From: Octopus vulgaris
Lineage: Eukaryota
Length of the DNA: 64,000 nucleotides
NCBI GenBank assembly: GCA_951406725.2
Contig: OX597819.1
Span: forward strand, 132,122,001-132,186,000
Reading direction: 5' to 3'
The position numbers were made by a program. Positions 24,001 through 27,000 of this stretch are shown piece by piece. Each line of letters opens with the position of its first letter. Positions within the stretch are counted from its first letter, which is position 1.

Positions 24001-27000
24001 TAAATTCTCTGCTGAGAATAATTTGATGCGATATTCTAATTCCATCAACAGATTCAGTTTTTCATTTGTTCCCCCTTTATATTTATGATAATTATTATTA
24101 ATTTTTTTTTTTTTTTGGTCAAATAAGGTTCTTAGTTTTATAACGAACATGAAAACAATGTTGTTGTTTTTCTGTAAGTATTAGGGTTAATAATTCCCAT
24201 GTTGTATATATTTCGATTGAACTTGATCTTCTAAGAACACTTGTCGACTGTTGCTGTATTAACATCTCAATTCCACAATCCAGTTATAAATGGCATTTTC
24301 AGTAATCATGAAACAATGTTTTTCCAGTTTTGAGAGCTTTTTCCAGATATTTTTAGTATGAAATTTTGTTTCTTTATTAGAAATGCTTGTCTCAGTTTTC
24401 TTTTCTGTTTGTTTCGTATTTGTGCTTCATATCTGCTTTTGTTTGAATTCAGTTTTTGTAGTAAAATTAGTTGATATCACATTGTTCCTTATGGTATATA
24501 TTTCATTTACTGCTACCTAACATAGTAGTAATTGGACACCTGAATTTGATTCAGTGAATGTTTGCTGTCACATGCTTTGTGTTTGCAGTAGATTCTTAGA
24601 TTTTGATCATCTGTTGAGTAGATTTAGCAGGATTTGTTTAAATGGTAGAGTTCTTTTGGAATGGTTCTGCTTAATTTGTTAGTTGCTTGCGATAAGTAGT
24701 TGTCGTAATCAGTTATGTAGAGGTAGGAAATGTTTCGTGTCCTATTCTCTAATTACTTTGTTTTCAACTGTTTTTATTTAGGAAACTCCACTGAAGATCC
24801 TAATGTTATAATTGAAACTGTTGAAGACAATGCTGACAATGAGAACAAAGGAACGCAGTCTCTTAAACCAACTCTTACAACCAAAAACCCGGTTATGTAT
24901 CTAAATGAATTGTTGCCCGAACCTTTGGTTTATGAACTGATGTCAGAATCTGGTCCTCCTCATGATAGGAATTTTGTCATGTCGGTAAAGGCTAATGACC
25001 AAACGGTGCAGGGGGCTGGTCGCAGCAAGAAACTTGCCAAGGCAGCGGCTGCCCAGGTAGCTTTGTTTAAGCTTTTCAACATCGTCTACATCTCAGAACC
25101 AGGTCAGTTGATCTAATTTCCCATCTACAGCCATACAATTCTTCACGAAAATTTAGATTTAGTTCATCAGAATCAAGCTACATCTAAAAGAATTTTTGTA
25201 ATAATCACCGATGTTGTCATTAGTCAACAATTATAAGGTCCAATGCTAACTGTTTGCTCCTCTGATCGGATCTTGTTTTTCTAGTTTCTTTTTATCGTTT
25301 TTGATGTTGTTTGTGTTTAATATCTTTTGTAGAACCAAATTTATTTGGTTGAATTGTGTTTCCTTTGTGTCATTGAAATAACATTTTAGGGTAAAAATTA
25401 GAAACTGGCATGTGACATTCAATAGCTCTGGTTAATCTTTCTTTTTTTTTTTTTGTGTGATATTTTCTGTTGATCGTTATTTTAAAATCAGGTTCTTCTT
25501 TTGGTATGCCTTTTGTTTTCCAAGTGTTGATATTTTTGTTGAATTGACTAAAATGTGTGTTGTGCTGTTGTCTTTCATAATCTATTGCTTAATTCTAAAA
25601 CTAAGTTTTGCTCATCTTGGTGTTGCTTACATAAACGCGTTGTTATAGAATTATAAAAAAAGAAATAGGCAGATTGGGTGGAGGATTTTCGGAATTCCTG
25701 TTTGTGAAGGAGCTTAAGCTGACCTGTTTGACACAATTTTGGTCTTAGCCCCTGTCCAAATACAAGAAATGTTTCATATTACATCAAATACTCTACAATC
25801 TGTGATGAACCATTCCATCTGAAGTTGTAGAAAACAATAGGAGAAATTTTAAACTGGAAAGACCCAACGGGGCCACTGAAAGGCCCGTTGCTTTTTTCCA
25901 TCTTTCACCTGGCTATTTATAATGTGTCTCATTAAAATATTTAATTAACATTGTTTATTTTCAGCTGATACTTGCATGTTTGTAATTAATATATTAAAAC
26001 TGCATTTTATTTAGATTTATTATTATTATTATTATTCTATAGTCTTCTCCATATTTTGTTGTTTGTTTTCCTGATTTGATTATAAGTTAATGTATTGTTA
26101 TTTCAAATATTTGCAGATATTAATCTTTCCAAAAAAGGCAAAAAATTCTAGAAGCAACAAAAGATTTTGAAATGTATTTTTGTTGGTAAAAACAAATATT
26201 GTATAACCTCTAAACATTTGAAATTAGTTTCTATTTAAAATTTCACCGAGGATCTTATAACTAATAACTTCATTCTTTATTTAGGAGCATAGAAACACTT
26301 TGTGGGTTTTCTTTTATTCTTTCTAAATCCTAAAATCACAAAAATCTTAACATTTTCCTTTGTTTGAAGGTGGCTTTCCCGTAAGAGATTCGTTTTTACA
26401 GCCTTAAAGTGTAGGGGAGATAACTGCCTACTCTGTATTCGAAATAAACTTTGTCTAGAGAAATAATTTTTTAACAGGATTTTTTATTTTCCGTACCAGG
26501 ATCTCTACCTGAAAATTTATAGCATTTGGAACAACAACAACAACAATAATAAATTTGTTTCTTTTAAGCAACAGCTATGATAAGAAAAAGAATGTTTAAA
26601 AAAATGAGTTTTTAGGTAAGCTGAAAATTAAACAACTTAATTTCTTCGTTCAAGACATTCCAACATTCTCAATAATCCAGTCTTTTTGTAAAGGAAATTA
26701 TTTTAGGCAGATACTGTGTAGTTTAAGGAAAACGGATTAACTGATCAATCAAATGTTGGATTTTAAAAAACTTTTTGAGTCCTTTTTTTCCCTGTTACTC
26801 TAACTTGCATTGCATGAAACTGTCAAGCATAACATTTTTGCTTTTCCGACTGCAAATTTTTTATTCTGCAACCCTGGCTGCTTTTAACTTTAATCAATGT
26901 TGTTTTGCTTTTATGTGGAGAAAATTTAGAATTTTTTTCTTTTTTCTCATTACCTTATTGTTTCACATTCCATCAAGTTAATTTCAGAATTGTAAGGCAC

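What the first reader, a model, noticed from the sequence alone, without database searches (positions are those of the whole stretch)
24782..25102. ADAR2 with a third dsRBD on a frame-symmetric cassette exon 33 kb upstream of the main dsRBD exon
Seen: a complete dsRBM on a 321-nt exon with phase 1 at both ends, so it can be included or skipped without a frameshift. Established: most ADAR2 proteins have two dsRBDs, while squid ADAR2a gains a third from an optional exon that raises its editing activity. Inference: this Octopus-like genome keeps the same switch between 2-dsRBD and 3-dsRBD isoforms, which is relevant to the extensive recoding seen in coleoids.
Basis: partly seen in the sequence, partly recalled or inferred. 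Interest (0 to 1): 0.8.

Follow-up and report, generated by a model that had tools for sequence, protein, structure and literature searches.

The report
Extra RNA-binding exon of cephalopod ADAR2
This is a real coding exon that adds a third double-stranded-RNA-binding domain to an ADAR2-type RNA-editing enzyme, laid out just like the optional exon already described in squid, so it is a sound but largely expected finding.

Summary
Window 24782-25102 (+) is a 321-nt open stretch bounded by AG and GT. It is open in one frame only, with phase 1 at both ends. It encodes a complete dsRBD (Pfam dsrm E 3.1e-12; best solved relative rat ADAR2, E 1e-29; predicted alpha-beta-beta-beta-alpha fold).

The next coding exon lies 33,479 nt downstream (58582-59343). 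It carries two dsRBDs plus a linker that match rat ADAR2 at E 2.8e-76, and it accepts the upstream exon in frame.

This layout matches the published squid ADAR2 gene: optional dsRBM on exon 2, the two canonical dsRBMs on exon 3, and very long introns (PMC10278661). The window is therefore almost certainly the ADAR2 orthologue of another cephalopod. It is not Doryteuthis pealeii, judging by intron length and one residue.

Several points are not shown:
- DNA alone cannot show that the exon is skipped in this species. Exon 3 is also phase 1-1, so frame symmetry is weak evidence.
- Exon 1 and the deaminase exons are not in the window or were not found.
- The species could not be determined.

Novelty is low: a new member of a known kind.

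The parts
24759..24781 (+). 3' splice site of the intron upstream of the exon: pyrimidine-rich tract ending in TTTAG
   Evidence: 15 of 20 pyrimidines before the AG at 24780-81
24782..25102 (+). Extra-dsRBD exon (homologue of squid ADAR2 exon 2), 321 nt, phase 1 at both ends
   Evidence: Open in one frame only; Pfam dsrm E 3.1e-12; GC 0.433 against 0.30 in the 500-nt flanks, the same as exon 3 at 0.432
24784..24879 (+). Acidic N-terminal lead-in of the exon (32 residues, pI about 4.05), no domain match
   Evidence: low pLDDT in the single-sequence model
24880..25083 (+). dsRBD core (P0001 residues 33-100): helix with NPVM..NE, GPPH loop, KKLAK helix start
   Evidence: Aligned end to end with rat ADAR2 dsRBM2 2b7v, 64.5 bits. 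Fold is H7-14, E20-27, E34-41, E44-50, H53-74 in the trimmed model. Foldseek TM 0.71-0.80 to solved dsRBDs
25103..58581 (+). Intron of 33,479 nt between the extra-dsRBD exon and the two-dsRBD exon. It contains a 3.1-kb (TATG)n microsatellite, interspersed repeats and CpG-rich patches
58582..59343 (+). Main exon (762 nt, phase 1 at both ends) with both canonical ADAR2 dsRBDs and their linker
   Evidence: Two dsrm matches, E 1.3e-28. Rat ADAR2 2l3j at E 2.8e-76 over residues 54-261, against ILF3 at 1.6e-40. Donor CTG|GTAAGT matches 8 of 9
58713..58931 (+). Canonical dsRBD 1 of ADAR2 type
   Evidence: 2l3c/2b7t (rat ADAR2 dsRBM1) 121.6/120.1 bits
59115..59336 (+). Canonical dsRBD 2 of ADAR2 type
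   Evidence: 2b7v (rat ADAR2 dsRBM2) 106.7 bits. It contains [10 protein letters not shown], which matches 9 of 10 residues of the squid motif printed in PMC7192619

Best explanation
The window holds the 5' half of a cephalopod ADAR2 (ADARB1-type editase) gene. Exon 24782-25102 is the counterpart of squid ADAR2 exon 2: a self-contained module made of an acidic lead-in and one dsRBD. It is spliced in frame to the exon that carries the two canonical dsRBDs (58582-59343).

When the exon is included, the enzyme has three dsRBDs. The extra one keeps the residues that dsRBDs use to grip the minor groove and backbone of A-form RNA, so it should raise affinity for dsRNA, as shown for squid ADAR2a. Because the exon is 107 codons long and phase 1-1, leaving it out would give the ordinary two-dsRBD enzyme without a frameshift.

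Shown here: the exon, its frame, its domain, its fit to the next exon, and the ADAR2 type of that next exon.

Inferred: that both exons lie in one transcript, from the frame fit and the identical squid architecture. Also inferred, by homology only: that the exon is optional in this species and that it raises activity.
For: - Exact AG/GT boundaries and a single open frame.
- dsrm E 3.1e-12. Rat ADAR2 is the best solved relative at 1e-29, and dsRBM2 (62-64.6 bits) is preferred over dsRBM1 (42-46 bits). The squid paper reports the same grouping for its extra dsRBM.
- The predicted dsRBD fold and its matches to solved dsRBDs.
- 21 invariant columns among the three dsRBDs of the window, including K-N..M.LNE, G..H and KK.AK.
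- Exon 3 matches rat ADAR2 dsRBM1-linker-dsRBM2 at 2.8e-76.
- The phase-1 junction gives Asp.
- No further dsRBD copy elsewhere in the window (tblastn).
- Exon GC of 0.433 equals that of exon 3 and exceeds the flanks.
- Published squid gene: optional dsRBM on exon 2, dsRBM2+3 on exon 3, deaminase on exons 4-5, first three introns about 40-65 kb (PMC10278661 section 18 passage).
Against: - No transcript evidence is available, so neither linkage of the two exons nor skipping is observed.
- Both splice sites look strong (donor 8 of 9, acceptor 15 of 20 Y), which is not what a weakly recognised cassette exon would show.
- Exon 3 is also phase 1-1, so symmetry does not single this exon out.
- No deaminase domain was found in 30 of 212 ORFs of at least 70 aa scanned, so the ADAR identity rests on the dsRBD exon alone.
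- Within the window the extra dsRBD is not clearly closer to the second canonical dsRBD (52% identity, 47.4 bits) than to the first (46% identity, 50.8 bits).
- Exon 1 was not identified. The one candidate is at chance level.
Confidence: 0.8

Rival explanations
1. The exon is constitutive in this species. Every ADAR2 message carries three dsRBDs and there is no 2/3-dsRBD switch by exon skipping.
For: Strong acceptor and donor. Symmetry is shared with exon 3 and so is not diagnostic. No text describing a two-isoform ADAR2 outside squid was found in seven searches.
Against: In squid both isoforms are seen as cDNAs and as proteins of 89 and 71 kDa (PMC7192619 passages), from the same exon layout. 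The frame allows skipping.
Confidence: 0.2
2. The two-dsRBD form is made not, or not only, by skipping. It would come from transcripts that start inside the 33-kb intron and translate from the first Met of exon 3 (ATG 58638-58640).
For: CpG observed/expected is about 1.0-1.57 at 41.5-42.5 kb and 50-52.5 kb, against 0.51 for the window. The ORFs there have no Pfam match that would mark them as transposon genes (0 of 12 ORFs in these zones). The first Met in exon 3 has a purine at -3 and lies before the basic stretch and dsRBD 1.
Against: There is no promoter evidence. CpG-rich patches could be young repeats. The squid literature speaks of an optional exon.
Confidence: 0.08
3. The exon belongs to a separate dsRNA-binding-protein gene, or is a dead relic of a duplicated dsRBD that is no longer spliced into ADAR2.
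For: dsRBDs of ILF3, Staufen and TARBP2 also match. The exon lies 33 kb from the next ADAR2 exon. No transcript data are available.
Against: - Intact 129-codon stop-to-stop frame.
- Intact splice sites and phase fit to exon 3.
- All dsRBD signature columns kept.
- ADAR2 is the top solved relative.
- No other domain-bearing ORF nearby.
- Architecture identical to squid ADAR2.
Confidence: 0.03

Closest known systems
Squid (Doryteuthis pealeii) ADAR2, isoforms sqADAR2a/sqADAR2b (Palavicini 2009/2012, not held; gene structure in PMC10278661)
   Same: - An extra N-terminal dsRBM on its own exon, directly upstream of one exon carrying both canonical dsRBMs.
- Very long introns.
- The extra dsRBM is of the dsRBM2 type.
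- The motif LNELRPGLKY of sqADAR2a is matched at 9 of 10 residues in exon 3.
   Different: - The intron after the extra-dsRBD exon is 33.5 kb here, against about 40-65 kb reported for the first three squid introns.
- One residue differs in the printed motif.
- Optional use and higher activity are shown for squid only.
Vertebrate ADAR2 (ADARB1), e.g. rat ADAR2 dsRBM1/2 structures 2l3j, 2b7t, 2b7v
   Same: Exon 3 aligns over dsRBM1, linker and dsRBM2 at E 2.8e-76. The extra dsRBD aligns with dsRBM2 at 56-59% identity in structure-based alignments.
   Different: Vertebrate and Drosophila ADAR2 have two dsRBMs only (PMC10278661 section 17). The extra domain is far more diverged (64.6 bits) than the canonical two (107-122 bits) from their rat counterparts.
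ILF3/NF90 second dsRBD (3p1x, 2l33, 5dv7)
   Same: Top structural match of the model (TM 0.79-0.80, 53-58% identity) and second-best sequence match.
   Different: ILF3 matches exon 3 much less well than ADAR2 does (1.6e-40 against 2.8e-76). It is a non-enzymatic protein with a different N-terminal domain, and nothing of that kind was seen in the window.
ADAR1, the other ADAR with three dsRBDs in vertebrates
   Same: Three dsRBDs before a deaminase domain.
   Different: ADAR1 dsRBD matches are weak (9b83 at 1.3e-10; 7zj1 at 0.011). Squid ADAR1 has a single dsRBM. The third domain here is an ADAR2-type addition and not ADAR1-like.

Membership tests
dsRBD / dsrm (Pfam PF00035) | Profile match above the curated cutoff | tested here: met
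   47.3 bits against cutoff 23, E 3.1e-12
dsRBD / dsrm (Pfam PF00035) | alpha-beta-beta-beta-alpha fold | tested here: met
   The predicted model (pLDDT 79.9) shows H-E-E-E-H. Foldseek gives 70 PDB matches at E<=0.001, and the 49 listed are dsRBD-containing chains. The single-sequence model was poor (pLDDT 45.6). This is a prediction, not a solved structure.
dsRBD / dsrm (Pfam PF00035) | RNA-contact motifs: helix-1 residues, GPxH-type loop, KKxAK at the start of helix 2 (motif definition recalled from the dsRBD literature) | tested here: met
   NPVM..LNE, GPPH and KKLAK are present and fall in columns invariant across the three dsRBDs of the window. There is a one-residue insertion (PEP for PG) in the helix1-strand1 loop.
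ADAR2 (ADARB1-type editase) | Two tandem dsRBDs with the ADAR2-type linker | tested here: met
   One continuous alignment to rat ADAR2 residues 2-229 of 2l3j, E 2.8e-76. The next family (ILF3) scores 1.6e-40.
ADAR2 (ADARB1-type editase) | C-terminal adenosine deaminase domain with zinc ligands and the catalytic Glu | tested here: inconclusive
   No A_deamin match in the 10 plus-strand and minus-strand ORFs downstream of exon 3, or in 20 other ORFs. Only 4.7 kb follow exon 3, and the squid intron here is about 40-65 kb, so the domain probably lies outside the window.
Coleoid ADAR2a-type optional dsRBD exon | Extra dsRBD on a separate exon immediately upstream of the exon with both canonical dsRBDs, joined in frame | tested here: met
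   compared with the passage
Coleoid ADAR2a-type optional dsRBD exon | Extra dsRBD groups with the dsRBM2 type of ADAR2 | tested here: inconclusive
   Against solved rat domains it does: 64.6 bits against 46.2 bits. Against the window's own two domains the signal is mixed: 52% identity and 47.4 bits against 46% identity and 50.8 bits. No tree could be built for lack of outside sequences.
Coleoid ADAR2a-type optional dsRBD exon | Exon is included in some transcripts and skipped in others | not testable with these tools
   Needs RNA data. Only frame compatibility (321 nt, phase 1-1) is shown.
Coleoid ADAR2a-type optional dsRBD exon | Inclusion raises RNA affinity and editing activity | not testable with these tools
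   Known for squid from citing passages only.

The most novel reading that the evidence does not exclude
Inclusion of the extra-dsRBD exon may be set by double-stranded RNA formed in the ADAR2 pre-mRNA itself. Copies of one interspersed repeat sit in opposite orientation in the intron before the exon (4537-4875 and 9078-9328) and in the intron after it (29998-30217, 32151-32412, 32613-32943). These pairs are 80-87% complementary over about 200-260 nt. A further pair brackets exon 3 (32743-32947 with 63240-63444, 91%).

Such duplexes could loop the exon out, giving skipping or a circular RNA. As ADAR substrates they could also let the enzyme feed back on its own 2-/3-dsRBD ratio. Together with conservation of the exon outside squid, that would make the cassette an ancient, self-tuned control of coleoid editing capacity.
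Probability: 0.06. Interest if true: 0.7.

Novelty: new member of a known kind. Interest (0 to 1): 0.3.

Why it matters
Coleoid cephalopods recode their neural transcripts far more than other animals, and the extra dsRBD of squid ADAR2 is one of the few enzyme features put forward to explain this. Finding the same exon, intact and in the same gene layout, in a second cephalopod genome supports the view that the module is maintained by selection and is older than one squid lineage. It also gives exact coordinates for junction-read, isoform and exon-deletion tests. It does not by itself add a new mechanism.

Tried and rejected
- **Exon 1 search.** I scanned the plus strand of 1-24700 for ATG-initiated frames ending at a phase-1 donor. 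There was 1 candidate at >=8 of 9 donor matches (17717-17744, 9 codons plus 1 base) and 13 at >=7 of 9. Its length fits the estimate from squid numbering (n1+297 against 306). However, 200 block shuffles give a mean of 1.53 such candidates, and 30% of shuffles hold one of 7-11 codons. Rejected as chance level.
- **No CpG-rich promoter-like patch upstream of the exon.** All 20 top CpG windows lie at 37-52.7 kb.
- **Local inverted repeats around the exon (23000-27000).** Only short AT-rich pairs of 26 nt or less turned up, with no editing-site-complement-like duplex.
- **RNA folding of exon 2 and exon 3.** z = +1.08 and +0.61, so neither is unusually structured.
- **Single-sequence AlphaFold.** Poor model (pLDDT 45.6), replaced by a 3-row alignment.
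- **ESM Atlas.** Only generic dsrm clusters, best score 0.90.
- **Rfam and tRNA scans.** 0 matches.
- **Pfam on other ORFs.** 30 of 212 ORFs scanned, 0 above cutoff, and 5 weak hits at E 0.014-0.078 dismissed.
- **Suspected gap at 46-49 kb.** It is a (TATG)n microsatellite; the window holds no N.
- **Rivals considered and rejected.** The ADAR/D-like gene: squid has 11 exons in about 15 kb and its dsRBM1 is not ADAR-like. An ILF3/STRBP homologue.
- **Papers not held.** Palavicini 2009 and 2012 and Albertin 2015.

Full report
**1. The observation**

The stretch 24782-25102 on the plus strand is preceded by a pyrimidine-rich tract ending in TTTAG. It is followed by GTCAGT. The donor matches 8 of 9 positions of the generic consensus, and 15 of the 20 bases before the acceptor are pyrimidines. 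The length is 321 nt.

Of the three forward frames, only the one beginning at 24784 is open (106 codons). The other two hold 5 and 13 stops. The stop-to-stop frame runs 24727-25116. The only other GT before its stop would give phase 2.

**2. What the exon encodes**

The peptide (P0001) consists of an acidic 32-residue lead-in (pI about 4.05) followed by a dsRBD.
- Pfam dsrm scores 47.3 bits against a cutoff of 23, E 3.1e-12.
- Among solved structures the best relative is rat ADAR2 (2l3j, E 1e-29).
- The isolated dsRBM2 construct 2b7v scores 64.6 bits and the dsRBM1 constructs score 46.1-46.2 bits. ILF3 dsRBD2 scores 59 bits.

A single-sequence AlphaFold model was poor (pLDDT 45.6). With an alignment of the three dsRBDs of the window (A1), the trimmed domain folds with pLDDT 79.9 into helix-strand-strand-strand-helix. 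Foldseek places that model on ILF3 DRBM2, ADAR2 dsRBM2 and dsRBM1, Staufen, TRBP and RNase III dsRBDs at TM 0.71-0.80.

The alignment shows 21 invariant columns. They include the helix-1 K-N..M.LNE block, the G..H loop and KK.AK. My recollection of the dsRBD literature is that these are the RNA-contact regions. The exon's domain has one extra residue (PEP for PG) after helix 1.

**3. The neighbouring exon and the gene**

The only other dsRBD-coding sequence in the window lies at 58582-59343 (tblastn). That exon follows an AG at 58580-81 and is read in phase 1, so G(25102) plus AC(58582-83) gives Asp. The intron is 33,479 nt.

The exon encodes two dsrm domains (E 1.3e-28). It aligns as one block with rat ADAR2 dsRBM1-linker-dsRBM2 at E 2.8e-76. 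ILF3 comes second at 1.6e-40.

The joined, spliced sequence was not assembled or searched.

**4. What is missing from the gene**

No deaminase domain was found. I scanned 30 of the 212 ORFs of at least 70 aa with Pfam, and none passed a cutoff. Only 4.7 kb follow exon 3.

Exon 1 was not identified. The one candidate with a good phase-1 donor (17717-17744) is no better than what shuffled sequence yields.

**5. Comparison with what is known**

Passages and sections 17, 19 and 22 of PMC10278661 state the following:
- Squid ADAR2 has five coding exons.
- The first three introns are about 40-65 kb each.
- The extra dsRBM groups with dsRBM2 of human and fly ADAR2.

Passages of PMC7192619 describe the two squid isoforms as products of an optional exon. 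They give sizes of 89 and 71 kDa and print a motif at residues 306-315 of sqADAR2a. Exon 3 here matches that motif at 9 of 10 residues. Passages of PMC4384741 and PMC5705066 report that the three-dsRBD form binds dsRNA more tightly and edits more.

The original papers (Palavicini 2009, 2012) and the octopus genome paper are not held. Supplements are closed, so the squid sequences could not be compared.

The window reproduces the squid layout. The shorter intron and the one differing residue indicate a species other than D. pealeii.

Seven literature searches found no text describing a three-dsRBD ADAR2 isoform in octopus or any non-squid cephalopod. Gene-model databases could not be consulted.

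**6. How it most likely works**

Inclusion of the exon places an additional, apparently RNA-binding-competent dsRBD at the N-terminus of ADAR2. By analogy with squid, this should increase dsRNA affinity and editing output. Omission would restore the canonical two-dsRBD enzyme in frame.

The first part is well supported by the sequence. The optional character is inference. The splice sites are strong. Exon 3 is 762 nt and also phase 1-1, so symmetry is a property of both exons and fits domain-exon modularity as much as regulated skipping.

The extra domain is much more diverged from rat ADAR2 (64.6 bits) than the canonical two (107-122 bits). Inside the window it is about equally distant from both: 52% identity and 47.4 bits, against 46% identity and 50.8 bits. 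It therefore looks like an old duplicate.

**7. Rivals**

- A constitutive exon: about 0.2.
- A two-dsRBD form made from a start inside the intron and the first Met of exon 3: about 0.08. CpG-rich patches at 41.5-42.5 kb and 50-52.5 kb are the only hint.
- A separate gene or a dead relic: about 0.03.

**8. Nothing special in RNA structure near the exon**

No meaningful inverted repeat involves the exon locally. The exon RNAs fold no better than shuffles. Rfam and tRNA scans are empty.

Copies of one interspersed repeat do lie in opposite orientation on either side of exon 2 and of exon 3. With seven copies in 64 kb this is expected by chance. I keep it only as the boldest reading that is not excluded.

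**9. Verdict**

The kind is already described in squid, and this is a further member in another cephalopod genome.

Noticed in passing
window 46096-49176: A 3.1-kb (TATG)n/(TA)n microsatellite (about 790 copies, 84% matches) inside the long intron. It is open in all six frames and looked like a gap in the composition profile (GC 0.156), but the window holds no N.
   Followed up: yes
window 4537-4875, 9078-9328, 63241-63444 (one orientation); 7728-7947, 29998-30217, 32151-32412, 32613-32943 (the other): An interspersed repeat family of about 200-340 nt, partly with internal 66-nt tandem units (4707-4868, 32496-32776). Its copies form inverted pairs across exon 2 (80-87% over about 200-260 nt) and across exon 3 (up to 91% over 205 nt). 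These could form long intronic dsRNA.
   Followed up: partly
window 3100-3257, 5735-5857, 6949-7070, 9957-10128, 11501-11682, 17791-17902, 27574-27647, 37868-38026, 38187-38322, 40498-40624, 45042-45212: A second, SINE-like repeat of about 100-170 nt with at least 11 copies at 74-92% identity, nearly all in the same orientation as the gene. Neither ARAGORN nor Rfam calls a tRNA in it.
   Followed up: partly
window 41500-42500 and 50000-52750: Patches with CpG observed/expected of about 1.0-1.57, against 0.51 for the whole window, inside the 33-kb intron. The ORFs there have no Pfam match. They might be unmethylated islands, an internal promoter or young repeats.
   Followed up: partly
window 24730-24732: An in-frame ATG lies 52 nt upstream of the acceptor, inside the pyrimidine tract and 1 codon after the TAG at 24724-26. 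A transcript starting in the intron could in principle open the dsRBD frame here. This is probably chance.
   Followed up: no
window 58638-58640: The first Met codon of exon 3 has a purine at -3. It lies upstream of the basic KKKK stretch and of canonical dsRBD 1, so it is a possible start for a two-dsRBD protein if transcripts lack the upstream exons.
   Followed up: no
window 14064-14297 and 16299-16532: The longest inverted repeat of the window outside microsatellites: 222-234 nt, 91-93% complementary, arms 2 kb apart. It lies in the region upstream of the exon and may mark the ends of a small transposon.
   Followed up: no
window 17717-17744: The only ATG-to-phase-1-donor candidate with a donor match of at least 8 of 9. 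Its length of 9 codons plus 1 base equals the exon-1 length estimated from squid numbering, but shuffled sequence gives such candidates at a mean of 1.53 per scan.
   Followed up: yes
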